Shown here: piece by piece, positions 2,525 to 55,214 of the stretch
Position numbering within the stretch: the stretch's first letter is position 1
Layout of the letters: every line of letters starts with the position of its first letter
From: Naegleria gruberi
Taxonomy: Eukaryota
Reading direction: 5' to 3' (one strand)
DNA: 64,000 nucleotides
Assembly: GCA_000004985.1 (NCBI GenBank)
Contig: GG738883.1
The notes under the pieces: generated by a model
Databases searched by the model: none
What the model was told of the DNA's origin: nothing
The model's input: only the letters and a program-made list of their open reading frames with translations
Position numbers and translations under genes: made by a program

Positions 2525-3766
2525 ATGAAACAAGCAATCATGACTCTCAAGTTTACAAGTTTCCTTATTGCCTCAATAAGCATGTTGTTTATATATCTCT
2601 CTGTATGTCAAGTTGTTGATGCAGCAACGTGTACCAATAGTCAAGGATGTGGCGTAAGGGCATTCCTTGCAGATCTTCAACAAGAGGTTTCTCAATTAGA
2701 TTGTATCAGCAGCAAGTTGAATAATAGCATTGCAATTTTGATGTCTACAAATTCCTCAGCATTAAATTCTCAGATCAAGACCAGAGTCAAGCAATTGAAC
2801 AAGATTGAGGCTGCTAAAAAGATGTTGTCCTTAGAAATAGCTCCATTGAATGATCAATGCAACAAACAAGACGGAGACAATTGTGACTTGGCATGTTTTG
2901 GACTCGCTCCTTCCAAATATCCTTCAACAGTTTGTTCTGGTCATGGAGTATGTTCTTCTCTTGATGTCTGTTCATGTTATCCAGGATGGTCAGGTAGTAA
3001 TTGTTCTCTCGCTTCATGTAATGGAATTTTAGCAACCAATACAAGCTCTGTTTGTAATGGTCGTGGCACATGTGTTTCCAACAATACTTGTGTTTGTAAT
3101 AGTGGAGTGTATGGTCCTTACTGTGAACCAATCATTATTACTGGAGATGATACAACAGGCAGAAGAATGGCCAATGGTGTGGCCAAGGCAAGTTGTTTGG
3201 AATTTTATCAAGCTTATCCATATGCAGAATCTGGTTTTTACTACATCAAGCCACAAACTACTGAAGTATTAGTGTATTGTAATATGACTATGAGTGGTGG
3301 AGGTTTCACATTTGTTCGTCGTGTTGCAGCTGCAGGTTGGTGGCCTTTGAATGATAATTTTGGTGGAAGCGGTTCTGGAATTTATAATCCAAGATCATTA
3401 TCAGCTGCTGGTGTTACATTTGGTCTCGATTATTCCAACATTCCTAGAACTCAAGTATTAATTACAACAGGTGATGGTGTGCATTGGATTCTAGTTAATT
3501 TGGATCAACTCACTTCTGGATATGGTGGGAATGATTGTACAGCCACAATTACTCTATTAGCAAGTTCTATCAGTCCAAATACTCCTTATTCTGTACAAGT
3601 TTGCAAGAGAGGAAACTTTAATGAAGACCCATGGTTGACAACTCATAATCATTTTTACATGACAACAGATAGTGAAAGTCACAGTATGTTGTGGGGTGAA
3701 TCAAGTAATACCTATTGGCCATATTGGAAGACTAGTCATGGTGGTATCAATGTGTTTATTAGATAA
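2525..3766 (+). CDS. Secreted protein with signal peptide, coiled-coil, EGF-like Cys repeats and a fibrinogen-related (FReD-like) C-terminal domain
   Basis: There is an N-terminal hydrophobic signal (LIASISMLFIYLSVC). The EGF-like modules are CSGHGVCSSLDVCSCYPGWSGSNC and CNGRGTCVSNNTCVCNSGVYGPYCE. These are followed by SCLEFYQAYPYAESGFYYIKPQTTEVLVYCNMTMSGGGFTFVRR. That stretch matches the FReD subdomain-A signature (SC..........SG.Y.I.P....VYCDM..GGGWTV.QRR). Confidence 0.7.
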   Translation: MKQAIMTLKFTSFLIASISMLFIYLSVCQVVDAATCTNSQGCGVRAFLADLQQEVSQLDCISSKLNNSIAILMSTNSSALNSQIKTRVKQLNKIEAAKKMLSLEIAPLNDQCNKQDGDNCDLACFGLAPSKYPSTVCSGHGVCSSLDVCSCYPGWSGSNCSLASCNGILATNTSSVCNGRGTCVSNNTCVCNSGVYGPYCEPIIITGDDTTGRRMANGVAKASCLEFYQAYPYAESGFYYIKPQTTEVLVYCNMTMSGGGFTFVRRVAAAGWWPLNDNFGGSGSGIYNPRSLSAAGVTFGLDYSNIPRTQVLITTGDGVHWILVNLDQLTSGYGGNDCTATITLLASSISPNTPYSVQVCKRGNFNEDPWLTTHNHFYMTTDSESHSMLWGESSNTYWPYWKTSHGGINVFIR

Positions 3767-7677: not shown

Positions 7678-9561
7678 TTAAAGAAGGAACAAGATAAGCA
7701 CAATCAAGCAAGAGAAATACTTCAAAGTCATACTGATGGAGACACTTCCACTTACTTGTGCCAAAGGAGCCAACAATACATTTCCACTCAAATTCTTTGT
7801 TTGACAAACAACTGAACCATTTTGGTTAGTAGTAATAATTGTTGTATCCACACTAACAGTCTCTGTAGCCCTATCATATCTTCCACAAATTGGAGTCATT
7901 GTACCAGAATATGGGATTGTAATCTTGATATAACCGTTGACAATACCATCAGCTATAGTACCATTTTCAAAAAGTGGAATAAAATCATAAACCTTAGATA
8001 CCATTTTCAATGAAGATTCTCTTTTTTTTGTTGGCTGTACAGTTCGAGCATTTGCTAAAACAGCTTGAATGCAATAATTAAATTCGTACTTGTCTGTAAT
8101 TAGGAAACATGCCAAGAAACGAGTTTTTGAAGTTGCCATTTCAATAGTAGAGGAACCAACAGGAATTAAACTAGCTCCCTTAGCAACTGCCAAATCAATG
8201 TTAGCGCTACTTGCTGTGACAACATCACCAAGTGTGAGAGCTGGTGTTAATTTCGCACCAATGGACTTGGCCAATAAAGATGACTTGTCGTTAGATGTCA
8301 ATAACAAGGCATTTGAGGCAACATTAATAACAGATTTAACAATGTCAGGAGAGAATTTAGAATTACGAGTAGATTCAATTAATGCATCTAAGGCCTTATT
8401 AGCAGACGTTTGTGTAAGTTCACCAGCAACTGAAGTGACAGATTCAAGTACTTTCACTACAGCCCCAAGATCACCTGAAGCAATATCTTTGGAGAGTGAT
8501 GTAATAATAGTATTTCTTATGGCTGCCTTTGTTGAAATTTGAGAATTATCACTTGTTGAAACTGTATTCAATAGAGAGGCAACACCTAACAAGTCTCCAA
8601 CAGACGAATTAGTGGAAAGGAGGTTAGATATGAGTGTAATAGCTTGACTAGTTGGCAAATTTGCAACTGGATTGGTGAGTGGAATGGTAGTCAATTTTTG
8701 AATACTGACGGATTTAGAACCATATGTTGCAACATAGAGATCAATTGAATTTTTACCAGAAAGTAATGGTAAAGTAAATGTAGCTGGATTTGGTGACACC
8801 TCGGTAAGAATTGTAATGGCGTCAGAATCAGCAAAACCAAATCCATAACCAAAATCAGAATCAGAATATGGATTAGAATTACCAGTAATAGTCAACTTGA
8901 AATTGGTTTTACCAGCAATGCCTGATGTAATAATTTGATTTGTGTTGGCATCTTGTAACAAGAATGTCAATTTTGGATCTTGTTGAACTACAATTGTAGT
9001 TGATTCAGTGATAGTAACACTCAAGGAAGGAGTTGTAACTTTGGCAGTCAATGAAAAACCATAAGTATTACCAGATTTAATACCATTATCAAGAGACAAC
9101 TTGTCTACCTTTCCAGGGATTTTCAATTGTGGTCTATTTAAATACCCTGCAACTGATGCCAAATCAAAAGCTGGACCAGAAACTTGTGACCAAGAATATT
9201 CAACATTAGAAATAACATCATTAGTGGCCAATGATGATATAGAAGATATAACCTGAACACCCAACATTGGGTGGGTGTATGCAGATGTTGCAACTGCACC
9301 AAAAACAGAACAATATTTACCATAAAATCGACTTGGACATGAACAAACACCAGCAGTACAACTACCATAACCACTACATTGTAGATAAACACCAATGGCT
9401 GTATCAATACATTGTTCTTCTTCTTGATTTCTCTTAATTGTGAGGTGGTTAGGATCGGAGACAGCACCATATGATAGGCAACACATATATGAGGAGAAAA
9501 CTAACCAAGCAACTAGAAGAACCAGTTTGCTGGTTGTGTGCGTGTGGATGGTTGTTGCCAT
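7678..9561 (-). CDS. Secreted, probably GPI-anchored Ser/Thr-rich surface protein with an N-terminal EGF-like module
   Basis: The likely start is the internal ATG at 9561 (MATTIHTHTTSKLVLLVAWLVFSSYMCCLSYGA, a signal peptide), not the upstream ATG at 9636. The EGF-like segment is CSGYGSCTAGVCSCPSRFYGKYCS. A long S/T/N-rich region follows. The C-terminal hydrophobic tail (YFSCLIVLILFLL) suggests a GPI anchor signal. Confidence 0.55.
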   Translation of the reverse strand: MATTIHTHTTSKLVLLVAWLVFSSYMCCLSYGAVSDPNHLTIKRNQEEEQCIDTAIGVYLQCSGYGSCTAGVCSCPSRFYGKYCSVFGAVATSAYTHPMLGVQVISSISSLATNDVISNVEYSWSQVSGPAFDLASVAGYLNRPQLKIPGKVDKLSLDNGIKSGNTYGFSLTAKVTTPSLSVTITESTTIVVQQDPKLTFLLQDANTNQIITSGIAGKTNFKLTITGNSNPYSDSDFGYGFGFADSDAITILTEVSPNPATFTLPLLSGKNSIDLYVATYGSKSVSIQKLTTIPLTNPVANLPTSQAITLISNLLSTNSSVGDLLGVASLLNTVSTSDNSQISTKAAIRNTIITSLSKDIASGDLGAVVKVLESVTSVAGELTQTSANKALDALIESTRNSKFSPDIVKSVINVASNALLLTSNDKSSLLAKSIGAKLTPALTLGDVVTASSANIDLAVAKGASLIPVGSSTIEMATSKTRFLACFLITDKYEFNYCIQAVLANARTVQPTKKRESSLKMVSKVYDFIPLFENGTIADGIVNGYIKITIPYSGTMTPICGRYDRATETVSVDTTIITTNQNGSVVCQTKNLSGNVLLAPLAQVSGSVSISMTLKYFSCLIVLILFLL

Positions 9562-10155
9562 ATGTTTTTTAAAGATCTTGATAAGGAACAAATGAACCTG
9601 TTGATGAAACTGTAGTTGCCAGTGGTGGGTTAACAATCAAGGATTCTTTAAGCGGATTGGGTTGTGGGCACATTTAATTTCAATCAAAAGTTCATCAGGA
9701 ATAAATTTGATATTGTATTATTTCACAAATTACTTTCTTTTCCAATGAAGATAAAAGATGAAGAGATAGAACCTTCCTTTTGATTTTATTCCTGGCTAAT
9801 GATGGAAAACAATGATGATGGTTTGTTTGGTGAATAATCGGAGCACCAACTTGAATTTTCCACGATGAAATATAAGTTTCCAATCACATGATGAAAATTC
9901 ACTTCTTAAAATTGATGTGAATTATTCTTTGATTTCATGATGTGAGAAATCACTCTGAAAATCAGCATTGCCACAAAGTACCTGTTGACGAATATTGTTA
10001 ATCCTGATTCAAATTTTACTATTAAAACTCCCAACCCCACCTCAATACCAAAAGTGTATTAAGTGTGAATAAAGCTCCGAGGAGTAAGTAGTTCTAATTT
10101 ACTGCCATCTTATTTCGAATACAGATGAAATGCACATTCTAACAAATTAAAAAAA

Positions 10156-12066: not shown

Positions 12067-14333
12067 ATGGCATCAACCGATAAGAAGAAATGGGAAGAAG
12101 CTGTTGAATGTATCCGAAACAATGATTATTCCAAAATTCGTTCCTGCTCACTTCATTCCATCATTAATAATGAATATGATGAACATTTTAATTTTACCTT
12201 GTTGAGATTGGCTTGTAATATGGAAAGAGATGAAATTGTAGAGTATTTACTGACTATTCCGAATATTGATGTGAATCGGATGGTACGTTTTATGATATTT
12301 AATATTTAAATATTTTTAAATATTTTGTAAAGACTCCGTTGGTTTATTGTAAAAAAGTGGAAATTGTAAAATTGTTACTGGGACATTCAAATATTAATGT
12401 CAATCAAGTAGTAAGTAGGAAATTGTGGGTTGTTTTAATTGTTGAATGATTTCTAGTCTGTAAGTTTAGAATAGTTTTATTGGAAACTAAAATAATTAGG
12501 AAGTATGTATGCTGTTTATTTGGAAATTTAGTAATATTCGGAATTGTTAGAATGTATGTTCAGCAATCTCTTGAAAATTAACTCTTTTGATTTTCTGGAT
12601 AAAATAGGTATTTGATAATCAGGTATGGTTCGAATAATTTCGAATAGCTAATTATCTATGATAATTTAGACACCTCTATACCGAGCATGTGTAGAAGGAA
12701 ATCTGGAAATTGTAAAATTATTATTGGAATCACCTTTTATTGATGTAAACAAATTCGTAAGTTTACTATTTATGGAAATTTAATTTCATAAATAGAATCC
12801 TTTGAAAGTTGCATGCAGAAATTGTGATATAGAAATTGTAAAACATCTGATCAATGCACCATCCATTAAAATTGATCCAAGCATATCCGTATGTTTCAAT
12901 TACAATGCAAAAGTTACCAATTTTGGATAAAGAAAGAGATTTTGGAACATGTTGAGGAAAATGTTAGAAAGGAAATGGATCTCAACAGCTTACTTTTGAA
13001 ATATTCGAATCATATTGAAATTATTCAACTACTGAATACTTCAGTAGACATACAGAACAAGATTGACCATTTATATGTGGAGTCAATCAAATATTTACTT
13101 GTTAGAATGATGTTTATTGGATCTGATTGGTCTAAAATTTCGGATACTGGAGAATTTATTTCATCGAACACAAATCTAAATGAGAAAGTAAGAAAATTAG
13201 TATTATCCTACATGGAATATAGCTCAGCCTTTGAACTCTTGCTTTTACAAACGAATAGGAAAGCCTTAATGACCCTTCCTTTAAAACACGTGCTTTCTCA
13301 CAAGAAGGATCAATTTATTTCATGGGAGGAATATGTTGTTTACAATTTGGCTGAATTAATTGCATACAGTTATTCGAAAGTTCAATTTGAACCGAGGAAA
13401 GTTACAAAACTCTCAAATCCAAAAATTGAAAGCATGAATAAGACAATTCTAGGAAAAGGAGGTTACGGAACTGTGTTTAAGGTTAAATTAAACGAGAAGG
13501 ATGTCGCTGAGAAAGTAACTCACTTAATCTCTATTATTGAAATTGAAATACTTGAAAAGATTAATACCTACACAGGAACTGTGGAAATGCTACACCATTT
13601 GCAGTATGATGGAGGGTTTAGGCTATATTTTGAATTGATGGATAGCTCATTGAAAGAGTATTCGATTTGTGGAGATTCATTCCTGAAACTATTTCAAATT
13701 TTGATGGTCTTCTTGAAATGTTCTGGAACCCTCAATAGAATGCACCAAGATGGTATAGTGCACAATGACATTAAGCCTCCAAATATATTGGTTTCCAAGA
13801 TGGAGGTTGGTGGTGAAATACTTATTAAGGATGCCAAAATTGCTGACTTTGATGTTTCACAACAAATTGAGAAAACAGAAACATATAATGTATCGAGGGT
13901 GGGTACATTGGGTTATATGGCACCGGAATTGATTGCTTTAATTAATAATCAACTTCCTAAGGATTTTGAATTCAATAGAAAAGCAATTGATGTCTATAGC
14001 TTTGGAGTTACCATGTATGAATTACTATTTGGAGAAATATATTTGAAAGATAACAATGAACAACGATCTCTACTTTCATTAACCCGTATCAAAAACTCAT
14101 TAAGTGGTCTCATACTAGGATCTGACTCAAGTAGCAGATTAGAAGTTAGTTTAATGCAAAGTTATAATTTTCTAAATGGAGAACAAGTTGAAAAATTGGT
14201 AAATTTGGTAAATGCTTGCACATGTGTAGATCCCAAAAAAAGAAAATCATTTAGTGCCATTCAGGAAGAATTGCTTCAAATTACTATGGATATTTTCACT
14301 CAATACAGAAAAGGATATGTATTAGACTTTTAG
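12067..14333 (+). CDS. Ankyrin-repeat protein kinase, at least 5 exons
   Basis: Exons are 12067-12282, 12333-12410, 12670-12756, 12796-12888 and about 12933-14333. Introns begin GTACGT/GTAAGT/GTATGT and end AG, with lengths 50, 259, 39 and about 44 nt. The last acceptor is uncertain. Exons 1-4 each carry one ankyrin repeat (TPLVYCKKVEIVKLLL, TPLYRACVEGNLEIVKLLL, NPLKVACRNCDIEIVKHLI). The last exon has the kinase motifs GKGGYGTVFKV, HNDIKPPNILV, DFD and GTLGYMAPE, so it is a non-RD kinase. Confidence 0.6.
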
Positions 14334-14469: not shown

Positions 14470-15849
14470 TTAAACAGCTGATGCTTCAACATAAATATTG
14501 GTTGCCACAGTTGGAGCAGTTCCAAACTTGATAGTAATAGCAGTTGTTGATACACTTTGAATGCTCCAATAGGTGGACCAAGTTGGAGTGAATGAAAATT
14601 TGATTGGTACCCTTTCGAATGCACTATCGAATGTGAGTGTCGCTGTGGTGGATCCAGCAGCTACACTAACAGTCTTTGATTGTTTCAAAACAATTCCAAT
14701 AAATGTACCATCAGCACTCAATGCATTGAAATTCAACTTGCTTCCAGCAATATTGTAAAAGATTGTAGATCCAAACAAATTCTTGGCACCACCAGCAGTA
14801 ATTCCAGCATCCAAATTGACAAATCTGCAAGAGTAGAAGCTGAAACGTCCCTTATATTCATCATAACCAACAGCAGTACTTCCATGAAGATTACCCAAGA
14901 AGAGAACTGAATAAAAGTCAACTGTAGCAGCCTTTGGAACTGAAACCATTGTCTTTTGATTTTCAAAGGCACCTCCTGTCATGAGTAAATTAACATTTAC
15001 AGCACCTGGCAATGAAGAATCAAAACGAATACCATAAGTATCCTTGGTGTAATCTCCATCTCCTGGATAATAGCTCAAATGACAATTTGACATTTGGAAA
15101 GCAACAGCATTGAAAGTATTATCAGAACCAGCATTTCTAAAAACAATATTTGATGATTGAGTTGCTTTTGCTGTTCCCAAAGTAAACATGGAAGTGTCAA
15201 AGTGGACAAAAGCATTCCAATTTTCAGCGTCCATAGAATCGACAATTAAATTGTGCTCAGTTGCACCATTCAAGTTCAAATTATCAAATTTCAACCATTG
15301 GTAACCGTTCAATCTCATGTTGGAAATGGCAACATTAGGATTGTTATTCTTAACATAAACTCTTTCGAATTGTGAGATGGAAACCAAATCCAAATCAACC
15401 ATTGGTGAACCAGTTGATGAACCAGTGTTTACAAATGCCAAATCAAAAACTTTAAATCCCTTTACATTTTGCATTGGTGATGCATTGTTACCGACCTTAA
15501 CTTTACCAGCTCCACGAAGATAGAGAACAGAGGATTGGGTACCTTCACCCATCAATGTAACACCATCTTTAACAATTGTCAAATTGGAGGAAATGGTATA
15601 CATGCCCTTTGGGAAGAAGATTCTTACACCAATATTGTATGGTTGGGAATTGGTACTGTCAGATGTTGTTGAAATGTACGTGTTGATAATGTTGGTAATA
15701 ACAGGAGCACAATCGTATGTGGATGCACCAGTCAAAATACCTGCCTGTTCAGAAGATGGAATGTTGTCAAGAATGTTGACAGTGGTTGCGTTACAGAAAG
15801 CAATGACAAGAGCCAAGCTCAATAAAACAACAGTGAATTGCTTTAACAT
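14470..15849 (-). CDS. Secreted right-handed beta-helix protein (pectate-lyase-3/PbH1-like)
   Basis: The likely start is the internal Met at 15849 (MLKQFTVVLLSLALVIAFCNA, a signal peptide), not the upstream ATG at 16044. TYDCAPVITNIINTYIS...IFFPKGMYTISSNLTIVKDGVTLMGEG resembles the pectate_lyase_3 N-terminal motif. The remainder is N/G/S-rich with beta-helix periodicity. Confidence 0.55.
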   Translation of the reverse strand: MLKQFTVVLLSLALVIAFCNATTVNILDNIPSSEQAGILTGASTYDCAPVITNIINTYISTTSDSTNSQPYNIGVRIFFPKGMYTISSNLTIVKDGVTLMGEGTQSSVLYLRGAGKVKVGNNASPMQNVKGFKVFDLAFVNTGSSTGSPMVDLDLVSISQFERVYVKNNNPNVAISNMRLNGYQWLKFDNLNLNGATEHNLIVDSMDAENWNAFVHFDTSMFTLGTAKATQSSNIVFRNAGSDNTFNAVAFQMSNCHLSYYPGDGDYTKDTYGIRFDSSLPGAVNVNLLMTGGAFENQKTMVSVPKAATVDFYSVLFLGNLHGSTAVGYDEYKGRFSFYSCRFVNLDAGITAGGAKNLFGSTIFYNIAGSKLNFNALSADGTFIGIVLKQSKTVSVAAGSTTATLTFDSAFERVPIKFSFTPTWSTYWSIQSVSTTAITIKFGTAPTVATNIYVEASAV

Positions 15850-16226: not shown

Positions 16227-17849
16227 TTAACCACCACTCTCAATATTATTTCTTGTCAAGAACACGTTATCATATTCGAAAGATAGTCTTTCTTTGAGAG
16301 CTTCTTCATAGGGAATAGCTGGGTGACCAATCTCACAAAATAGCCCTGCATGTCGTGCTAATTCAATTGCTATATCTTTGCTTTTTGAAATATAATTTAC
16401 AAACTCTGCTGCCATACCAGAACGCTGTTTTAGTGTGAACAAAAGCATTGACTCATCCGTAATGTACAAATGTCTAATATCGTTATTGTTTCGTATTAGA
16501 CTAGGATTTGCTACTAGTGCCCTTTTTATATAGTCTCTATCAGATAGTTGACTGTTTGTGAGTTTGTGTTGACTACCGAATGTTTTTGAATGTTTGAGAC
16601 ATTCAAGAAGGAATTCTTCATCCTCCAACATTGAGGGAAGTATATCAATGGTAATATCTTCTGATAAAGTCTTGATTATTAGATTCTTATTTGTCTTTAA
16701 ATGATGTGAAAGAAAGTGATAGACTTTCGGGTTCACTTTGAGTGCTTTTTCAGCAAACTCGATATCGTTCAGCAGATGATTTGGTAAATGTTTGATATAC
16801 TCTGATTTGACAATAGTTTCCAATATTAAATCTTCGGTCATTGAAGAAATTAATTGTTCTTGTAATAACTTGATTTCCCAACAAACATTAATTACATGTT
16901 CAATAGCTAGGGGATTTTGAGATAATGCTTGTTTTACAATATTCTTATCAGACCTCAATCGTATAGATGCATATTGAAGAGCCAAACCATTCTGCTTTAC
17001 AGCCAATAGCACAATTTCACTTTGATCTCTCATTACTTCATTCGCAAACTCCAGTGCAAGCCCATTTTGCTTCACTGCAATTTTAACAATAGAGTAAGGT
17101 ACATCTCTAGAGCAAAAATTCAGAGCCAATCCATTTTGTGTAACAGCAATTTGAACAATGTCTAAATCATTCTGAAATTTTGAAAATACTTTCAAATTGA
17201 GTCCATTCCAACTGATGAATAATCTGGCCAGTTTCTTATCCACCAGTTTCGATTCATCTAAATAATTAATATCTCCCTTTGCAGCAGCAGTAATAACATC
17301 CTCATCATATTCCAACTCATTTCCAATAAAGTAAATATTGAATGGATTGACTTTTAAAACTCTCAATATAAATTCCTTATTTTCCAAATACTTTGAGGGA
17401 AGATTATGCAAAGTAAATCCAGTTTTTTCCATTGCAACCTCAATCACATCTTCATCATAGGCAATACTCGGATCTCCATAGTGAATCATTGCTCCAGACA
17501 TTGAGAGGGCCCTCTTTAATATTTCCTTATCTAACAACCATGAAGGAAAGGAACCTCTCGCATGATCAATATAAAGTTGTCCATTTTGATTCACTGCCTC
17601 CAATACAACATTTCTACAGGCCATAAACTCGACAGGAATCAGACGAATTTCCCTCCACGAAATTATACTCTTTAATTTCCATGTTTTTAGTTCAATATTG
17701 AGAAAATCATCTCTTCTTCGGAACCATTTGCACAGATTTTCCTGTTGACTATTAAATTTTCTTCGTAATAATTTGCTGTAAATTCCCTCCGATAATTGGA
17801 AATCTATTAATTCAAAAATCACCAGAGCAGATGTTGGATCTAAATGCAT
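16227..17849 (-). CDS. DUF4116-type repeat protein
   Basis: There are about ten tandem ~36-aa repeats of the form ..D.E(I/V)VL.AV.QNGLAL.(F/Y)AS..L(R/K).D. Examples are DQSEIVLLAVKQNGLALQYASIRLRSDKNIVKQALSQN and VPYSIVKIAVKQNGLALEFANEVMRD. A paralog lies at 58631-60523. Confidence 0.6.
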   Translation of the reverse strand: MHLDPTSALVIFELIDFQLSEGIYSKLLRRKFNSQQENLCKWFRRRDDFLNIELKTWKLKSIISWREIRLIPVEFMACRNVVLEAVNQNGQLYIDHARGSFPSWLLDKEILKRALSMSGAMIHYGDPSIAYDEDVIEVAMEKTGFTLHNLPSKYLENKEFILRVLKVNPFNIYFIGNELEYDEDVITAAAKGDINYLDESKLVDKKLARLFISWNGLNLKVFSKFQNDLDIVQIAVTQNGLALNFCSRDVPYSIVKIAVKQNGLALEFANEVMRDQSEIVLLAVKQNGLALQYASIRLRSDKNIVKQALSQNPLAIEHVINVCWEIKLLQEQLISSMTEDLILETIVKSEYIKHLPNHLLNDIEFAEKALKVNPKVYHFLSHHLKTNKNLIIKTLSEDITIDILPSMLEDEEFLLECLKHSKTFGSQHKLTNSQLSDRDYIKRALVANPSLIRNNNDIRHLYITDESMLLFTLKQRSGMAAEFVNYISKSKDIAIELARHAGLFCEIGHPAIPYEEALKERLSFEYDNVFLTRNNIESGG

Positions 17850-17986: not shown

Positions 17987-20900
17987 TTAGTTGGATTTTG
18001 ATTCGAGAATTGATTTCAGCTTATTCAATTCTGACATAATCTCAGTAAATGAAGGACGAACAGACGGATCCTTATCCCAACAAACTTGCATCAGCTCAAG
18101 ATACTTCCTAGTAAATTCTGATAATATCTCCAATGGCAATTTCTTCTCTGTTGGTAACACAAACTCACTCAACCAAATATTCATCTCCTCATTGGTAGAG
18201 AAGGGTATTTTAGGTCTTGACCCCTTTAACACTCTGCATAGAATAGTATATTCATTCGTGCTGTTTGTTGCATCATTTGATCCAAATCTGTGAATTTTGA
18301 AAACTCTGGAATTACAATAACAGTGTTCCTCAAAGAAAACTTCCCACATAATAATGGAGAAACTGTACACATCAACTTTGGTGGTATAGGATCCACTTTC
18401 AATCATTTCGGAGGCCATGTAGAAAACTGTGCCGATGTTCTTAGTTGAGGCACTATCAGTGGGTGTTGATAATCCAAAATCTGAAACCTTTCCAACAAAA
18501 TCATTACTAATGAGTATATTTCCTGGTTTTAAATCTCTATTTATGGAAATCAATAAAAAAACTTAAATTAACTAAAGAAACATACCTGTGAATCAATGGA
18601 GGATTCAATGTGTGAAGATATTTCATTCCATTGGCAATTGAAATTAAAATATCAAGTTTTCCTTTCAAATTCAAAGGAGAAACTCCTATTCTTGAATTGT
18701 AAATCAATCGATCCAAACTTCCATTACCAATGTACTCCACAACCATGTATTTGTTGTTGGAGGTCTTGGAAATTCCATAAAATTTGACAATATTTGGATG
18801 AGATAAACTATTTAAAATTGCTGCCTCTCGTTCAAACTCACCAACTTCATCACCGGTAGTATCTGACTTGAGTGCTTTGATGGCAACTTGTTTACCTTTC
18901 CATTTACCCAAATAAACAACACCATTACTTCCCTCTCCTATTTTCTTTTCAATTGAAATTTCCTCAATTGGAATAATCAAAGATTGTGAAGTAAAGGATT
19001 TATCTGAAGTTACCAAAAGTGGTTGACTTAAAGAATTGAATGAATTTTCAATAATTACGTCTTCCAAATTCTTTTCGGCAATTTCCTTTCTCTTGAGAAG
19101 GTTTAGTTTCATATAAACATGTCTCACTCCTCTAAAAGTAAGAAACAATAAAAGAATGATAAAAATCATTAAGAGAATTCCAAGAACCACACTGATTGGA
19201 ATTATTATTTGCTCAGAATTATCAGTATCAATACAAACAAAACCAGTAGAAAGTGGATTTTGAAGTACTTTTCCTTTTGGACAATCTGCAATATTAATAG
19301 TGATATTTTGAACAATATTTTGGATTGTAATATATCCATGCACTTGTCTCAGTTGCATTTTGTCTATGTCAAGTGAATAGGTTACAGAATTAAGTTGATT
19401 TGGAATAAGCTTTTTCGAATAAATCGTACCCTCTGATAAGGAAACAACGTCCACTTGACTTTGTAATTTCTTGACTGAAACCCTTTCTCCTTTACCCGTA
19501 TAGGTCTGTAAATTTCCTATACTAATGGTCAGCTCTTGTCCTGGGTATTGTGAATAGATAACATCTTGGTTTTGAATGAATTTGGAAACAACACTAGTAG
19601 CAGATATAACTTCTACAGTAAATGTTATATTATTTAGAGGTTCTCCAATGATATCTCCATATGATCCGGCTTCATTATTATCCTCCATGAGAAAACTTGA
19701 TACAATAATATAAGGACCTGGCTCTGAAATATAAATACAACCTCCTGAGAATACAGCACGATTGTATGAACACTTCAAATAATCCAAAAGCACTAATGGT
19801 TTTGGGTTTTCAACAAAAATAGCACCTCCAAGTTGTGCCGTATTATGTGTATTCGTTGAAGCTCTCAAATCCAAAGCATCTGTTCCCAATAATTTGGCAT
19901 AGATAGCACCTCCCATTTGGGCACTATTGTTGTTTGCGAGTAGTCTTAATGAAATTGCCAATCCTTCAACATAGACAGCACCTCCTCTCACTGCCTTGTT
20001 TCCATTGAATGTGCAATCATTAATTTGAATGATATTTGCCTTTATATAAACTCCATGTTGTATTGTTAAATCACCATTGTAGTTAAAATCACAATAATTC
20101 ATTAATAAAGATGATTGGGCAACATCCATCAACGAATCAATACGTATGGAAATACTAGAATTTCTAAAGTTAGTTTGAAATAGTGCAATGTAATTACTTT
20201 GAGAAACGCTGATACCATTTTTAACATTATTGAAATTATTAGAGAGGAACATTGTTTGTAAAGTGTTAGCAATTTGGAGTACTGGACTGTTTGCCAGTAA
20301 ATTATGAAATTCATTGAATCCAATTTTTAAAGAATTAATGTTATAGGCGTAGAATTGAAATTCGCCATCACTCACATTGTTGTTTTCAAATTTTGAAGAT
20401 GCCAAAAAGCTCTGTCGAATGGTTACAGAGCCAGTGAAGGTATTTTGTGAAATTTCAGAGGTTCTACAAATCAAAAAATCAGAATCTTTCACTCTACTGC
20501 GCAATAAGGAAAATCTTAGCTCAACCATATTGTCTCTATCAGATAGAGAAGAGGAAATAAATTGATACTTTTCAATGGTACAATTATTGAAAAATGTGCC
20601 AGGATTTAAAGATGGAGTCTCTTGTGTGTGTTTGATGTTTTTAAGTGTGGAATTTGCAAAATTTGCTGTAACAGTTGCGTAAAATTCAACAAATTCTAAT
20701 TGAGAATTTACAACAGACACAGAAATTGTTCCAAACTGACGACTTGGTTCATAAATTACTGAATTAAGTAGAATGGAATTCTCAATCTCTATCAATGGAA
20801 CAGCAACCAAACTGTTGCCACCATTGTTCAAAGTAAAATCAAAAAGTTTCAATCCCGACAACTTTAATCCATTCATGGCATTTAAATAAGTAAAGAAAGA

Positions 20901-21446
20901 TCCTCCATTACATTCAAATTGAATCCTCTTACTTTGATCAAATGATTCCAAGATCAAACTTTGCAATGGTTGATAACATACTATTCCACACTTGTATTCT
21001 CCATCCATCAAGTAGACATGAACTCTAGAAAATCTAATAGAATTGGCATAGGAAATAGCCTCTTCTACACTCTTGCAAGGGTTATTAGGGGATGTACAAT
21101 TGCGTTCTGTATTTAAGGATGACGGCTTAACATAGACAAATACATAACCAGATGACAATTGTTGATCAAATGATGATGATGTCGTTGTTGTTGTTGAATT
21201 ATCAACCAGAGCATTAATTACCACTGGTAGGCACATGAAAAGCAAAAAGAAAATCGGGGATATTTTCAGTGGAGTCATTTTTCTTGTTTTTGGAAGTGGG
21301 AAGAGATTCCAGTTCAATTTAATCTGGATAGCTGCTGAGGTAGGCACATTCTTCTGATCTTTATCGGAGAAGTAACTGTAATTAAGTATCCTTACTTTCG
21401 AAAGTAAGTTGATGATAAACTTTGATGCAGACAATGTCAATACCAT
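17987..21446 (-). CDS. Receptor-like Ser/Thr (TKL-like) kinase with a Pmp-type beta-helix ectodomain; 2 exons
   Basis: Exons are 21446-18586 and 18536-17987. The 49-nt intron (18537-18585, GTATGT...ATAG) splits the catalytic loop as IHR|DLKPGNILI. The signal peptide is MTPLKISPIFFLLFMCLPVVINA. Ectodomain repeats are GGAVYVEG, MGGAIYAK, LGGAIFVEN and SGGCIYISE. The TM segment is IIPISVVLGILLMIFIILLLFL. The kinase shows KIGEGSNGVVYLGKWKGKQVAIK...DFGLS...DVYSFSIIMWE. Confidence 0.75.
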
Positions 21447-25905: not shown

Positions 25906-27561
25906 TTAGATGGAACTAATTTCTGTATAGGCTCTCTTCTTTCTATTGTAAAATACTAGAGTAAGGATTATCACACCAACAATAACAAGGAGGAGAGCAG
26001 CTCCACCAATTGATGCTCCAATAATAATACCTAGATTATCTGAATTCTTACTTGGTTCTGGAGTGATATATCCTCCTAAATTGGAGGCATCATTGTCATT
26101 TACATTTGATGTCAAATAGTATGGGACAAATTCAAAATACTTGGATGGACTCAATTTAGTGGAAATGATTTCATTCATTTCAGATGTAGTCAATTTAAGA
26201 GATTTATCAACTTTCTTACCCCAATAATTCAAGCTTACATTGAGCTTTGAATTAGCTTTTTGCACACAGACATCTCCATTGACTGTTTCGACACTATCAA
26301 AAATGTTTTTTTCAATCCTCAAGTTGTTATTGATTGCATTCTTAATAGTGAGAGAACATTTACCAGAGTTTCCTGTTAAAGTGTTACGTACAAACGAAAG
26401 GGCTCCAATATTGTCAAAGTTTACAATACTATAGAATCCATTGACTTGACAATTTACAATTTCATTTTGTTCAAAAACTACTGAATCAAAATTGAATAAT
26501 GGTCCACCAATCAAATTCAAAGGTATTGATGGTAATCCAGAAGATGGGGTCAAATTAATCACCTTATTGTTAGTAAAGCGAAATAATTTCATGTTGTAAT
26601 TCATGAATACGGCAAGACCATGGATATTCTGGAATGTACATTGTTGGATATCAAAAACTCCATTAGATACATCTGGTTGATTATTGGCAATTGCTATTCC
26701 ACTCTCTTTCATATTGAAATTGTCAAATTTAACTCTGAATGCAGTAATATTATAGGAAACTATACCGGATTTGAACCATTTAAAGTCAACATTTGTCAAT
26801 TTAAGGGAAACTCTCTCAGAATTAATACCTTGCCCAACATTGTCGAAAACAGTGTTCTCAACAGTGAATGAATTCTTTGCATTCTTATTGTCAGATCCTT
26901 TGTGGACAAAGGTATTTCCTATTTTGGAGAAATAACAATTCGAAACAGTCACTCGACAAGCATTTTCTGGTAATGCAATCAAAAGGACGGTTTGCATGTT
27001 TTCAAATTTTGATTCAGTTACATGGAATACATGTTCTCCACTAATGATACGAAATAGGTTGTATCCACCATTCATTGTGCAATTACTGAGTTTAATAGAA
27101 TCCAGTGATTGTTGAATGTCAAAGGTTTGAACAGCCTTCAGTCTTTGAGACTTGATAACAGATACTGAATCCAAATCTAAGCGTCTTGTTTGGCCATCCA
27201 ACACAAACGACCACATTTCATTGTTGAAAGATGGAACTGGTTTTGTTCCTTGGAACACATCCAAACTCATGAATTGTACGTGCTTTCCAATTTCTAAACT
27301 TCCATTAATATTGATAGTGATTGGTTGTGTAACATTGGATGATGAGTAGAATACTACTTGAGCATTATCTTTAATTGATAGGATGCTATCTTGTGGAATG
27401 TTCAAGCTTTCCTTGATGAGCACAAGTCCTTTCCATTCAATAATAGATACTTCATTTCTTTTAGCACATACATGTTGAATGTTGTAACTCACAACCATTA
27501 AGATAAACAAGTAAATGGCCAACACTAAGCGTGACCATCTACTCAAAGCTAATACGTTCAT
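25906..27561 (-). CDS. Type-I membrane protein with a beta-helix (FxxN-repeat) ectodomain and a short cytoplasmic tail
   Basis: Signal peptide MNVLALSRWSRLVLAIYLFILMVVSYNIQHVCA. Repeated FxxN beta-helix units are FDNVGQG, FENMQTV, FQNIHGL, FTNNKVI, FEQNEIV and FVRNTLT. TM segment LGIIIGASIGGAALLLVIVGVIILTLVFY, then NRKKRAYTEISSI at the C-terminus. This looks like a kinase-less relative of the receptor-kinase ectodomains. Confidence 0.55.
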   Translation of the reverse strand: MNVLALSRWSRLVLAIYLFILMVVSYNIQHVCAKRNEVSIIEWKGLVLIKESLNIPQDSILSIKDNAQVVFYSSSNVTQPITININGSLEIGKHVQFMSLDVFQGTKPVPSFNNEMWSFVLDGQTRRLDLDSVSVIKSQRLKAVQTFDIQQSLDSIKLSNCTMNGGYNLFRIISGEHVFHVTESKFENMQTVLLIALPENACRVTVSNCYFSKIGNTFVHKGSDNKNAKNSFTVENTVFDNVGQGINSERVSLKLTNVDFKWFKSGIVSYNITAFRVKFDNFNMKESGIAIANNQPDVSNGVFDIQQCTFQNIHGLAVFMNYNMKLFRFTNNKVINLTPSSGLPSIPLNLIGGPLFNFDSVVFEQNEIVNCQVNGFYSIVNFDNIGALSFVRNTLTGNSGKCSLTIKNAINNNLRIEKNIFDSVETVNGDVCVQKANSKLNVSLNYWGKKVDKSLKLTTSEMNEIISTKLSPSKYFEFVPYYLTSNVNDNDASNLGGYITPEPSKNSDNLGIIIGASIGGAALLLVIVGVIILTLVFYNRKKRAYTEISSI

Positions 27562-51234: not shown

Positions 51235-54200
51235 ATGCATGTTTGGCTTTTTTTGATCCTCTTACTCTCGCTGAGTTTGCTGGTTCGTTTTTCAACGTCG
51301 GCCACATCATCAACCACATCACAGTATTCCTCTTCTTCCTTCGTTTCATTTCTTAACAATCGAATATATAATCAAACTAATTATTATCCGAAACGATTTA
51401 TTCAATTCTCTGAACATGAAACTACTCATGATCATATTAAAAGACAACAATCACAGTTGTCATCATTAGAATCGCCACCATCATCATCTATAAACAAAAT
51501 TGATTTTAATGACTATAGTTTCCTACTAACTAATAATCAAAACTATACTTCCGATTATCCATATATTTCTCCATTCAATTCCACCTATTCTTTACCACCT
51601 TGCTGTACTACCCTAAACGGAAATGAAAATGCCCTATTCGAAACTAAAAAGCTATTAAACATGGCTAAAAACACAAAACGAATTGAAATGGAAAAATGCA
51701 GAAATGCAGCACTTGATAGTATATTCGGATTGGATTGTGTTGTCATTGAATTGGAATATATATTGGAGAATTCGACGAGTTCTGAACTGAGGAGGAATTC
51801 AGTGAATGGTTCAATGGAAAGTATTCGAAATGAAACTGTTTATTCATCACTTGATGAAATATATCAAGTATTTAAAAGAGATGTGACGATAATTGCTGAG
51901 AGAGAAAATCAAAAATCAGCATTTTCGTATAAAAAGATTCCTGAGGGAATTATTTCACTGAGAGTACGTGTCTTGTCAGATATGGTGAACGAGGAAAATT
52001 GTACTCTTCAAATGGATATTGGACAAATATTCAATTCATCATCGATTAGAAGACCTATTGCAGATTATAAGGTATTCTTTGAATTGTACAGTGAAAATCA
52101 AAGACATGAATTATATTGCAGAGTTAATGTTGATAGTTCTCTGTTTTTTTCAACATTTAGAGGATTGACTTTACGTTTGGTAACACATAATTTGAGTTAT
52201 TATGCAGAAAGGGTGACATTTCTTAGTGGAGCACTAAATGGAGGATTATTTGCTGTTTATTCACAGGTGGAATTGAGGCAGAATATACTCTTTTCACAAA
52301 CACGTGTTACTTTATTTGAAGAATTGAATTATTTTGGACAAAATTGGATTCTTCAAAGAGATAATTCAAATAATATTAATGCAATTTTTGTAGATAGTAA
52401 TATGACAGTGTATTTCGAAGACGTTCTTAAAGGAAGAAATATGTGGTTTCTGAATACAACTTTAGAGATTGATAGTGAGTTTTTGATTGAGGAAGTGAAT
52501 GAAATTTTGATTCACAAATGTACTATCAAATCGAAAGGAAATACTTCGGATAGAGATTTTGCAAACTTGCAAATATCATTTGCGAATATTGTTGAAATTC
52601 ATAGTACAGTATTCGAAACAGTAAATGGAAAGACCATTTTAGGAATTGGTGAAAGTATTGATGTCAACCTCATTGATACACATTTCACTGATCATAGAAA
52701 TGAAGCTGGCTCTCTAATTTACATGAAGAATCTAAGAAATTTGGTGATTTCCAAATCTCATTTTTTGAGGAATTGGGTTGGTTCAAGTGTTCTCTTCCTC
52801 AGTAACATAATTGCGGGTTTTATTAGTGATTGTAGATTTGAAGAAAATGAATCTGTTATATCAAATGGTATAATCTTCGTTCAATCTGCTGGATCTTTCA
52901 AAAGGGTGCTGATTAGCTCATCTATTTTTATTAGAAACAGAGCGTATGATCGTGGAGGATGCATTCATGCCTCTGATACTTCAGTTCACGTTCACTTTAG
53001 TGAATTTCGTGAAAATTATGCTCCTTCAGGAAGTGCTATCTATGCACAAGAAACAGAGCTCTCAATTGAAAGCTGCAATTTTATTGATAATTATTCAGAG
53101 ATGAGTGGTGGAGCTATTTTTATTAATGGCAATTTCAGTAGTGTTAATTCAAACTTTTACAATAACTCTGTGAATTTGAAATCAAATTATCCATGCACGT
53201 CATATTGCAGTGGAAGTGGAGGAGCCATTTCGTATGCATCTACAGAATTAGATACAATTCAGCTCTTTCTTGTTGATTCCAAATTCGAGAATAATAGTGC
53301 TATTAGAGGTGGAGCTCTCTCTATCAAGTACCTATCCAATACTCCAAAAATTACTTGGGAATCCGTCAAGATTTATAATAATTATGCCAAATCTGGAGGT
53401 GGAATATTTTTCTTTGAATTGATTGACAACAAAATTCTATCATCCACATTCGAAAGAAATAGAGCTGACTTTTATGGAAATGACATGGCTTCTTCCACTA
53501 GGTCAATTGAGTGGAATATTATGGGAAAATCACCAAATTCTCAAATAAGTGTGTTCCCAGGGCAGACTTTTTCCCTCAAGACATTTACTAAGGATTATTT
53601 CGGAGCTAATATTGGAGATTTGTGGGAGTATTATATTTTGACTGTGAATGATACACGATTTAATTTAAAAAAACCCACTCAAACTAATCGAAATGACACC
53701 ATTGAGGGTTTGTTCATTTACAGTACAAAGATTCAAACTGAGCCAACATATATTCGGTTGTGGATTGATTTTTCACAATCCTTTAGTTATTTGGATATTC
53801 TAGTTAAGGGGTGTCCTGAGAATTATGAATTGATTTCTGCTAATTATGGATCAGAAAATTCCTATATTTGTCAAGCTGTGCCAAGTGTAACTGTTATTAT
53901 TATAACAGTTGTTGTTTCTTCATTTGTTGCATTTTCAGTCTTTGTTATTGTTTCTACAATTTTGGGATATGCCATTTTCAGATTAACAAAAAAGCTCTTA
54001 TATTGGAAAGAAAGAATTAAGGTGGAGAAGGATGTAGAAAAGAGACTATTCGAAAGTGGAATAAGGTGTACGAAAGAGGAAATCAAAGCATCAGGCGAGT
54101 ATAGTCTTGCAAGAAAAAATGTTTTCATTATTGGTCTTGATCAGGTTCACATTGAAAAGAAAATTGGAGAAGGTAAGTGTATCATTCAACGCATGTTTCT

Positions 54201-55214
54201 AATAACCTATTATTAGGAGGAGCTGGTTTCGTTTACAAAGGAAAGTGGAATCACAACACAGTTGCCATCAAATGTCTAAGAGTGGAGGGATCAGAAAGCG
54301 AATTTCTCAGTGATGAAATTGAGAGAGAGGCAACCCATTTGTCTAAACTCAGACATCCGAATGTACTCATGTTCTACGGTATTTCTGTAACTCCACAAAA
54401 ACACTATTTGATTATTGAATATTTGGAAAAGGGAAGTTTGGAAAATTTAATAATTGAAAGTAGGAAACATTCATTATTGAATTTGGAAATGAAATTGTCA
54501 ATCCTAATTGACATTGCATGTGGAATGGAATATTTACACTCTTCACATATTATTCATCGTGATCTCAAGAGTGGCAATGTTCTCCTTGACGCCAACAATG
54601 TTGCAAAGGTTTGTGACTTTGGATTGAGTAAGATCATGTCCAATTCATGTCAACATTCAACTATTGCTAATGTGGGCACGATTTATTTCATGGCCGTGGA
54701 ATTATTTTCTGAAAAACTGAGCTCCTCCACTGTCATTACACCAGCCATTGACGTTTATAGTTTTGGAATTATTATGCATGAGCTCTTTTTCGAGGAACGT
54801 CCCTACAATCTCTCAAAGAATAGCAAATTATTAATGTGGAAGAATGAGCAAGAGACAATCACATCTCCATTCGCAATGCTACCAAGAATTATCAAAGGAG
54901 AAAGACCCTTCATTCCATTTGAGGATGATTATAGTATGGATGAGTATTTGCAAATGGCTGTACCTGAATATCGTCGAATGAATAATTCTAGTTTGGTGTC
55001 CTTGATCAAGATGGAAAAGTACAGACAAGTTGTAACAGATTATATTGAACTAATGACCAAGTGTTGGAGTGGAGAGCCAACAGCTCGTCCCAATTTCACA
55101 ACTGTCAATGAAACTCTCCAATCTATGAAACGTAAATTGAAAGAAATTGGAAAACATGACGAGCAAGTAAGTGGTTACAAAAAGTTGGTGGACGTAGAAC
55201 TGGAAATGAAGTAA
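51235..55214 (+). CDS. Receptor-like Ser/Thr (TKL-like) kinase with a Pmp-type beta-helix ectodomain; 2 exons
   Basis: Exon 1 is 51235-54172 and the intron is 54173-54216 (44 nt, GTAAGT..TATTAG). Exon 2 is 54217-55214. The intron splits the glycine loop as IGEG|GAGFVYKGKW. Signal peptide MHVWLFLILLLSLSLLVRFSTSA. Ectodomain repeats are RGGCIHASD, SGGAIFING, SGGAISYAS, RGGALSIKY and SGGGIFFFE, with FxxN units FRENYAP, FIDNYSE, FYNNSVN, FENNSAI and FERNRAD. TM segment VIIITVVVSSFVAFSVFVIVSTILGYAIF. Kinase motifs are HRDLKSGNVLL, DFGLS and DVYSFGIIMHE. Confidence 0.8.

What the first reader, a model, noticed from the sequence alone, without database searches (positions are those of the whole stretch)
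17987..21446. Receptor-like kinases with chlamydial Pmp-type (GGA[ILV]/FxxN) beta-helix ectodomains; the two paralogs carry their single intron at different places
Two large genes, 17987-21446(-) and 51235-55214(+), have the same architecture. Each has a signal peptide, then about 700-900 aa of beta-helix repeats with the polymorphic-membrane-protein hallmarks, then a single TM helix and a TKL-like Ser/Thr kinase. The hallmarks are GGA[ILV] motifs (GGAIYAK, GGAIFVEN, SGGAIFING, RGGALSIKY) and FxxN motifs (FYNNSVN, FENNSAI, FRENYAP). Pmp repeats are best known from Chlamydia adhesins, so fusion to a eukaryotic kinase is an unusual receptor design. The two paralogs each have exactly one tiny intron, at non-homologous positions. 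In the first it splits the catalytic loop (IHR|DLKPGN, 49 nt). In the second it splits the glycine loop (IGEG|GAG, 44 nt). This implies independent intron gain or loss after duplication. A kinase-less membrane paralog (25906-27561) and a secreted beta-helix protein (14470-15849) lie in the same 40 kb, which suggests a locally expanded surface-protein family.
Basis: partly seen in the sequence, partly recalled or inferred. Interest (0 to 1): 0.7.

Follow-up and report, generated by a model that had tools for sequence, protein, structure and literature searches.

The report
Naegleria receptor kinases with beta-helix ectodomains
Two genes of the amoeba Naegleria gruberi encode single-pass membrane kinases whose outer part is a Pmp-type beta-helix, an undescribed but not unique combination of two well-known modules, so the finding is real but only moderately novel.

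Summary
The window is Naegleria gruberi. Both genes exist as described: 17987-21446(-) and 51235-55214(+). Each encodes a signal peptide, an all-beta ectodomain, one TM helix and an intact TKL-group kinase. Each has one short GT..AG intron, 49 nt in the catalytic loop and 44 nt in the glycine loop.

Four corrections apply.
- Canonical FxxN/GGA rungs cover only about 100-180 aa. The helix is about 350-430 aa, followed by an Ig-like stalk.
- The "chlamydial" label is historical. No autotransporter or Pmp-middle domain is present.
- The architecture also occurs in Protostelium and a diatom.
- The two neighbouring "paralogs" show no detectable homology.

The family is conserved across the genus. 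Four N. fowleri and N. lovaniensis homologs share five other kinase-domain introns, so seven positions exist and none is shared between lineages.

My model of B corrects the public annotation at both ends. Function and localisation are untested. This is a new variant of a known kind, of moderate interest.

The parts
17987..21446 (-). Gene A, the full annotated CDS span. Exon 1 is 18586-21446, the intron is 18537-18585 and exon 2 is 17987-18536 including the stop. The product is 1136 aa and equals the public model P0001.
21210..21278 (-). Gene A signal peptide MTPLKISPIFFLLFMCLPVVINA. The likely true start codon is at 21276-21278. The 56 aa upstream in the public model are not conserved in the paralog P0002.
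   Evidence: the start choice is an inference
19740..21032 (-). Gene A predicted beta-solenoid part of the ectodomain, about aa 139-569. The AlphaFold model is low to medium confidence.
19722..20009 (-). Gene A canonical Pmp-type rungs: FNGNKAVRGGAVY, NNNSAQMGGAIY, THNTAQLGGAIF and SYNRAVFSGGCIY. The Pfam Chlam_PMP hit lies here.
19134..19196 (-). Gene A transmembrane helix ISVVLGILLMIFIILLLFLTF, followed by the basic stretch RGVRH..K..KRK.
18026..18959 (-). Gene A TKL-type protein kinase domain (contains the intron). The motifs GEGSNG, VAIK, HRDLKPGN, DFG and CW..P..RP are intact.
18537..18585 (-). Gene A intron, 49 nt, GTATGT..ATAG, phase 2 in the Arg codon of HRD.
51235..55214 (+). Gene B, revised CDS. 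Exon 1 is 51235-54172, the intron is 54173-54216 and exon 2 is 54217-55214. The product is 1311 aa.
51235..51303 (+). Gene B signal peptide MHVWLFLILLLSLSLLVRFSTSA. It is missing from the public model P0048, which starts at 51661.
52441..53475 (+). Gene B right-handed parallel beta-helix, about aa 403-747. pLDDT is mostly 80-96 over aa ~450-750 (model residues ~130-430). Canonical FxxN/GGA rungs lie at about 52927-53469.
53497..53880 (+). Gene B membrane-proximal beta-sandwich (Ig-like) stalk. It carries the family-conserved YPGQ and CP motifs.
53884..53979 (+). Gene B transmembrane segment.
54145..55109 (+). Gene B TKL-type kinase domain (contains the intron).
54173..54216 (+). Gene B intron, 44 nt, GTAAGT..TTAG, phase 1 in the second Gly codon of the GEGGAG loop.
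54960..54991 (+). A 32-nt 'intron' present only in the public model P0048. It is judged spurious because it shifts the frame and removes kinase subdomain XI.

Best explanation
A and B are type I single-pass receptor-like protein kinases of Naegleria gruberi. Each has a cleavable signal peptide, an ectodomain, one TM helix and a cytosolic kinase of the TKL group that looks catalytically competent.

The core of the ectodomain is a right-handed parallel beta-helix. Its C-terminal rungs carry the FxxN/GGA(I,L,V) signature of PF02415 (the 'Chlam_PMP' repeat). A membrane-proximal Ig-like beta-sandwich follows the helix.

Shown here: the architecture, the fold class, the integrity of the kinase motifs and the conservation across the genus.

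Inferred: the rigid beta-helix is displayed on the cell surface or in the lumen of a phagosome, where it binds an extracellular ligand. A polysaccharide or a prey or partner cell surface is the likeliest ligand, because that is what this fold class usually binds. Ligand-driven clustering would then activate the kinase by trans-autophosphorylation.

The genes belong to a small family restricted to the genus. N. gruberi has at least four members: A, A', B and B'. N. fowleri and N. lovaniensis have two each. Intron positions have turned over completely between the lineages.
For: Identity and gene models.
- P0001 is 100% identical to gene A and comes from N. gruberi.
- A single open reading frame runs from the ectodomain through the TM helix into the kinase N-lobe in A.
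- The same is true of N. fowleri P0049, an ORF call on a genomic contig.
- The B' contig L005 carries one uninterrupted 1213-aa ORF. It starts with an adapter remnant and a 38-nt leader, so it is probably cDNA.

Kinase.
- Pfam E-values are about 1e-53.
- The best solved relatives are CTR1 (5.4e-44), TAK1 and the MLKs, all TKL-group kinases.

Ectodomain.
- Chlam_PMP is at or near the Pfam cut-off.
- The family profile hits 48,535 proteins, 1,081 of them at E<=1e-30. The multi-stretch hits among the 150 listed align only to profile positions about 430-640.
- Named hits carry PF02415 and PF13229 and include an autotransporter.
- The AlphaFold model of B aa 318-882 has pTM 0.71, with pLDDT 80-96 over the helix.
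- The stalk matches Ig-like domains with probability 1.0.

Topology. There are two hydrophobic segments, basic residues after the TM helix, and 10 and 19 NxS/T sites in the two ectodomains.

Family. Members are listed. In a neighbour-joining tree the family is monophyletic with 99% bootstrap support.
Against: - There is no transcript or protein evidence for A or B themselves. Their sequence clusters hold only the genome-derived models.
- Canonical Pmp motifs are few: 1 strict pair in A and 3 in B. The Pfam scores are borderline.
- The model of A is poor, with pLDDT 54.6.
- AlphaFold2 is reported to over-predict beta-solenoids for repeat sequences (title of PMC11795689).
- The first ~380 aa of B were not confidently modelled (aa 1-317 left out, aa 318-404 below pLDDT 50) and have no Pfam match.
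- Ligand, localisation, kinase activity and substrate specificity are all untested.
Confidence: 0.72

Rival explanations
1. The proteins are endolysosomal or phagosomal membrane kinases rather than plasma-membrane receptors. The beta-helix would face the vesicle lumen and report on ingested bacteria or cargo, like Dictyostelium VSK3.
For: Dictyostelium VSK3 has the same signal peptide, single TM helix and TKL kinase layout. It sits in late endosomes and lysosomes with its N-terminal domain in the lumen, and it is needed for phagosome maturation (PMC2064856). Naegleria is a phagotrophic bacterivore (background knowledge). The topology found here fits either location.
Against: No sorting signal was examined. 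The VSK3 ectodomain is a TIG domain, not a beta-helix. Nothing here distinguishes the two locations.
Confidence: 0.2
2. The ectodomain was acquired by horizontal transfer from Chlamydiae, which are common amoeba endosymbionts. On this view these are chimeric 'chlamydial adhesin-kinase' genes.
For: The Pfam family that matches is named after chlamydial Pmps. Chlamydia-related bacteria infect amoebae (background knowledge).
Against: - The Pmp middle domain and the autotransporter barrel were not detected.
- The named non-family hits are Methanobrevibacter, Membranicola, Selenomonadales, Gastranaerophilales, Tritrichomonas and a sponge. None is from Chlamydia.
- FxxN/GGA beta-helices are documented across bacteria, archaea and eukaryotes (PMC10715098).
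- Scores against repeat proteins follow repeat number, so they carry no signal about a donor.
Confidence: 0.04
3. The fusion is a gene-model artefact. On this view a surface beta-helix protein gene and an adjacent kinase gene have been joined wrongly.
For: The public models in this family do contain errors: P0048 at both ends and P0197 with a deleted TM helix. There is no transcript evidence for A or B.
Against: - Exon 1 of A is a single ORF that covers the ectodomain, the TM helix and kinase subdomains I-VIa, with no splicing needed.
- Exon 1 of B likewise runs into the glycine loop.
- The B' contig has the whole protein in one ORF.
- Seven homologs in three species share the architecture.
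Confidence: 0.02

Closest known systems
Chlamydial polymorphic membrane proteins (Pmps) and the wider PF02415 repeat proteins
   Same: Both have paired FxxN and GGA(I,L,V) motifs spaced about 25-30 aa apart. The motifs form rungs of a right-handed beta-helix displayed outside the cell (PMC10715098).
   Different: The Naegleria proteins have no Pmp middle domain and no C-terminal autotransporter barrel. They are eukaryotic type I membrane proteins with an Ig-like stalk, a TM helix and a kinase. Only 4-7 rungs are canonical, against 9-25 in Pmps.
Dictyostelium TKL receptor kinases (DRK/VSK and GDT families)
   Same: Both are amoebal proteins with a signal peptide, an ectodomain, one TM helix and a TKL-group kinase. 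VSK3 shows that such proteins can signal from phagosomal or lysosomal membranes (PMC1420674; PMC2064856).
   Different: The Dictyostelium ectodomains are specific to that genus or are TIG domains, not beta-helices. Orthology of the kinase domains was not tested here.
Plant RLK/Pelle receptor kinases and Entamoeba transmembrane kinases
   Same: All follow the general logic of a variable ectodomain, a single TM helix and a Ser/Thr-type kinase related to TKL/IRAK, in lineage-specific expansions (PMC2880585). Plant RLKs appear among the kinase hits.
   Different: Their ectodomains are LRR, lectin or CXXC-rich. In the neighbour-joining tree the plant RLKs form their own clade with 100% support, outside the Naegleria family.
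Chlam_PMP + TM + kinase proteins of Protostelium nocturnum (P0255) and the diatom Leptocylindrus danicus (P0009/P0206)
   Same: They have the same three-module architecture. Their Pfam Chlam_PMP scores are stronger, at 57 and 43 bits, and they carry a PK_Tyr_Ser-Thr kinase.
   Different: They are much longer, about 1,800 aa. They have GPS or Cys-rich modules next to the membrane instead of the Ig-like stalk. Their kinases do not group with the Naegleria family, so the fusions may be independent.
Beta-helix polysaccharide lyases and epimerases, phage tailspikes, and the adhesins PfbA and Vag8
   Different: Sequence identity is only 9-15%. No catalytic residues were examined, so nothing indicates enzymatic activity.

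Membership tests
Chlamydial Pmp family (autotransporter adhesins) | Repeated, paired FxxN and GGA(I,L,V) tetrapeptides (PF02415) | tested here: met
   Chlam_PMP scores 22.0 bits in A, above the 20.6 cut-off, and 19.4 bits in B. Motif counts are far above those in shuffled sequences. The family profile hits PF02415 proteins at E down to about 1e-150. Only 4-7 rungs are canonical.
Chlamydial Pmp family (autotransporter adhesins) | Pmp middle domain (PF07548) | tested here: not met
   The Pfam scan found no hit at E<=1 in A or B.
Chlamydial Pmp family (autotransporter adhesins) | C-terminal autotransporter beta-barrel (PF03797) | tested here: not met
   There is no hit. The C-terminus is a TM helix plus a kinase.
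Right-handed parallel beta-helix fold | Stacked three-strand rungs forming a solenoid | tested here: met
TKL-group eukaryotic protein kinases | ePK domain with intact catalytic motifs and closest similarity to TKL members | tested here: met
   PK_Tyr_Ser-Thr E is about 1e-53. The motifs GxGxxG, VAIK, HRDLKxxN and DFG are present. The top solved relatives are CTR1, TAK1 and the MLKs. No formal kinome-wide classification was done.
Receptor-like kinase architecture (type I) | N-terminal signal peptide, one TM helix, cytosolic C-terminal kinase | tested here: met
   The hydropathy scan finds only two hydrophobic segments, with basic residues after the TM helix. Surface localisation cannot be tested with these tools.
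Plant RLK/Pelle (IRAK) family | Kinase domain nested within the RLK/Pelle clade | tested here: not met
   In the neighbour-joining tree the four plant RLKs form a separate clade with 100% support, and the Naegleria family is a separate clade with 99% support. Sampling was small and the method is distance-based.
Dictyostelium DRK/VSK family | Shared DRK ectodomain or TIG domain; orthologous kinase | not tested
   Only the literature descriptions were read.

The most novel reading that the evidence does not exclude
The family may be a pattern-recognition receptor system specific to Naegleria. On this reading the rigid beta-helix reads bacterial or host surface glycans and couples directly to a TKL kinase that controls feeding or adhesion. 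It would be a protist analogue of plant immune receptor kinases. It is conserved in the brain-eating pathogen N. fowleri, where it could matter for host-cell contact. Separately, the seven private intron positions, including conserved 7-nt and 14-nt micro-exons, might record recent lineage-specific intron gain.
Probability: 0.15. Interest if true: 0.65.

Novelty: new variant of a known kind. Interest (0 to 1): 0.35.

Why it matters
Receptor kinases of free-living and pathogenic amoebae are poorly charted. A genus-conserved family with a defined, modellable ectodomain gives a concrete handle on how Naegleria senses prey or host surfaces. That includes two members in N. fowleri.

The same Pmp-helix-plus-kinase design appears in Heterolobosea, Amoebozoa and diatoms. 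This suggests the beta-helix is a reusable extracellular sensor module, not a chlamydial speciality.

The family is also a compact case for studying intron turnover. It has seven kinase-domain intron positions, none shared between N. gruberi and the N. fowleri/N. lovaniensis lineage.

In practical terms, the work corrects three public gene models.

Tried and rejected
Look-ups that failed.
- Exact-product look-ups for the N. gruberi paralogs A' (P0002) and B' (P0193) returned nothing. Their genomic intron positions could therefore not be read.
- P0002 ends exactly at ..IIHR, the site of the A intron. This is only suggestive.
- The L005 contig for B' is probably cDNA, so it says nothing about introns in B'.

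Searches of limited reach.
- The word-indexed search with the B ectodomain found only B itself. The exhaustive profile search was needed.
- The first AlphaFold run, on the A ectodomain with 4 sequences, gave pLDDT 54.6 and only weak Foldseek matches.
- The afdb50 fold library was not available.
- A search of solved structures with the ectodomain profile found nothing at E<=1.

Ideas rejected.
- The idea that 25906-27561(-) and 14470-15849(-) are kinase-less paralogs is rejected. BLAST, hhalign (probability below 1%), Pfam and PDB searches were all negative. Their folds were not modelled.
- The intron sequences have no copies elsewhere in the window, so there is no sign of introner-like elements.
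- A chlamydial origin is rejected, as explained under the rival explanations.

Literature.
- Searches found nothing on Naegleria with Pmp and kinase, on Pmp with receptor kinase, or on the locus tags.
- The Naegleria genome paper is not held in the library.
Full report
**Source and gene models**

The window is AT-rich, about 33% GC, and comes from Naegleria gruberi. The spliced product of 17987-21446(-) is 100% identical to the public 1136-aa 'predicted protein [Naegleria gruberi]' P0001 on a 371-kb scaffold.

Gene A consists of two ORFs, 18537-21446 and 17987-18553, on the minus strand. Removing the 49-nt GTATGT...ATAG interval 18537-18585 joins them in frame and rebuilds the catalytic loop IHR|DLKPGN.

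Gene B consists of ORFs 51235-54216 and 54177-55214 on the plus strand. Removing the 44-nt GTAAGT...TTAG interval 54173-54216 rebuilds the glycine loop IGEG|GAGFVY and gives 1311 aa.

Neither intron length is a multiple of three, and each intron contains an in-frame stop. Retention would therefore truncate the kinase. I found no transcript evidence for A or B themselves.

**The public model of B is wrong at both ends**

P0048 (1103 aa) starts at an internal Met at window 51661 and so lacks the signal peptide. It also removes a 32-nt 'intron' at 54960-54991. That shifts the frame and replaces kinase subdomain XI with 18 unrelated residues.

The unspliced reading keeps the CW..P..RP motif that A, B' and the homologs in other species all share.

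The public model of A probably starts 56 aa too early. The signal peptide begins at the Met encoded at 21278. Topology would be the same with either start (the start choice is an inference).

**Kinase**

Both proteins match PK_Tyr_Ser-Thr and Pkinase at E of about 1e-50 to 1e-54. They keep GxGxxG, VAIK, HRDLKxxN and DFG, and the CW..P..RP motif of subdomain XI.

The closest solved kinases are CTR1 (5.4e-44), TAK1, MLK and ROCO4, which places them in the TKL group. A family-specific insert of about 45 aa lies between subdomains IX and XI.

**Ectodomain**

Pfam Chlam_PMP scores 22.0 bits in A, above the 20.6 cut-off, and 19.4 bits in B.

| Motif count | A | B | Shuffled sequences |
|---|---|---|---|
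| GG[ACG][ILVA] | 4 | 5 | mean below 0.1, maximum 2 in 2000 shuffles |
| Strict FxxN..GGA[ILV] pairs | 1 | 3 | 3 of 2000 shuffles reach A's count; none reach B's |

No other ORF of at least 200 aa in the window has such a pair.

I built a profile from four family ectodomains and searched it exhaustively.
- It hit 48,535 proteins at E<=1e-3 and 1,081 at E<=1e-30.
- Among the 150 listed, the giant multi-stretch hits all align to profile positions about 430-640, which is the repeat zone.
- Named hits carry PF02415 and PF13229. They include Methanobrevibacter 'beta strand repeat' proteins, a Selenomonadales autotransporter, Tritrichomonas and a sponge.

An AlphaFold model of A with four sequences was poor, with pLDDT 54.6.

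A model of B aa 318-882 with an eight-sequence family alignment reached pTM 0.71, with pLDDT 80-96 over about 300 residues.
- The last roughly 130 residues before the membrane match Ig-like beta-sandwiches with probability 1.0. They hold the family-invariant YPGQ and CP motifs.

The ectodomain is therefore a helix of about 350-430 aa plus an Ig-like stalk, preceded in B by about 380 aa whose fold was not resolved. It is not 700-900 aa of Pmp repeats.

One caveat applies. AlphaFold2 has been reported to over-predict solenoids for repeat sequences (title of PMC11795689). Here the fold call is backed independently by the profile evidence.

**Topology**

Each protein has only two hydrophobic segments, the signal peptide and one TM helix. 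Basic residues follow the TM helix. The ectodomains carry 10 and 19 NxS/T sites.

**Family and distribution**

A and B are 30% identical over about 830 aa that cover the repeats, stalk, TM helix and kinase.

Other members are:
- A' (P0002, 79% identical to A, on another scaffold);
- B' (NAEGRDRAFT_80827);
- two genes in N. fowleri (FDP41_004375 and FDP41_010393);
- two genes in N. lovaniensis (C9374_008758 and C9374_008982).

In a neighbour-joining tree of kinase domains the family is monophyletic at 99% bootstrap support. The N. gruberi genes group together at 81%. The N. fowleri and N. lovaniensis genes form two orthologous pairs.

The same architecture exists outside Naegleria. Protostelium nocturnum P0255 has Chlam_PMP at 57 bits, a GPS motif and a kinase. 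The diatom Leptocylindrus danicus protein (P0009/P0206) and two unidentified eukaryote-like proteins have it too. Their kinases do not join the Naegleria clade. I could not resolve whether the fusion arose once or several times.

**Introns**

The four N. fowleri and N. lovaniensis genes share five kinase-domain introns at identical positions and phases:
- GEGASG|S, phase 2;
- PK|VCDF, phase 0;
- DF|G, phase 2;
- IY|M, phase 2;
- CP|E, phase 0.

These introns leave micro-exons of 14 and 7 nt. None of them coincides with the A intron (HR|D, phase 2) or the B intron. The B intron lies 13 nt upstream of the glycine-loop intron of the other species.

The family therefore has seven intron positions, none shared between the two lineages. 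The direction of change cannot be decided, because the genomic structures of A' and B' were not retrievable. The intron sequences have no other copies in the window.

**Neighbouring ORFs**

ORF 25906-27561(-) has a signal peptide and a C-terminal TM helix. ORF 14470-15849(-) has a signal peptide only. Both are intact. Neither shows any BLAST, hhalign (probability below 1%), Pfam or PDB relationship to A or B. The claim of a locally expanded family is not supported.

**Comparison with what is known**

The proteins share the repeat and the fold with chlamydial Pmps. They fail two defining features, the middle domain and the autotransporter barrel, so they are not Pmp-family members.

PF02415-type helices are already documented in bacteria, archaea and Trichomonas (PMC10715098).

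The nearest functional analogues are the Dictyostelium TKL receptor kinases. One of them, VSK3, works on phagolysosomal membranes (PMC1420674 and PMC2064856). Their ectodomains are different.

I found no paper that describes a Pmp-helix receptor kinase or these loci.

**Verdict**

The proteins are best read as surface or phagosomal receptor-like TKL kinases with a beta-helix sensor domain. This is a new variant of a known kind and of moderate interest. Function remains inferred.

Noticed in passing
window 51661 and 54960-54991: The public N. gruberi model for gene B (P0048, 1103 aa) lacks the N-terminal 142 aa, including the signal peptide. It also contains a 32-nt frame-shifting 'intron' that deletes kinase subdomain XI.
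   Followed up: yes
window 21279-21446 (-): The public model of gene A starts 56 aa upstream of the signal-peptide Met. This extension is not conserved in the paralog P0002 and is probably 5' UTR.
   Followed up: partly
L004 3859-3928: The N. fowleri model FDP41_004375 (P0197) has a 70-nt GT..AG 'intron' that removes the transmembrane helix. An ORF call on an independent contig (P0049) reads through it and keeps the TM helix.
   Followed up: partly
L001 7297-7310 and 7528-7534; equivalent sites in L002-L004: Micro-exons of 14 nt and 7 nt lie in the kinase activation segment. They are conserved in all four N. fowleri and N. lovaniensis homologs.
   Followed up: partly
L005 1-58: The Logan contig (run ERR1078381) that carries B' begins with an Illumina adapter remnant and a 38-nt leader. 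It differs from the reference strain at 8 residues. It is probably a transcript from another N. gruberi strain.
   Followed up: partly
window 16227-17849 (-) and 58631-60523 (-): Two DUF4116 repeat proteins, with Pfam E of 4.7e-56 and 1.8e-146. This repeat family has no known function.
   Followed up: no
window 25906-27561 (-) and 14470-15849 (-): One orphan type I membrane protein and one orphan secreted protein. Neither has a Pfam or PDB match. They share a weak 67-aa similarity with each other (E 0.02). Their folds were not modelled.
   Followed up: partly
window 12891-14333 (+), 33841-36228 (-), 2525-3766 (+), 7678-9636 (-): Other signalling or surface genes lie nearby: a soluble protein kinase, a Ras/Roc GTPase with ankyrin repeats, and two EGF-like proteins.
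   Followed up: no
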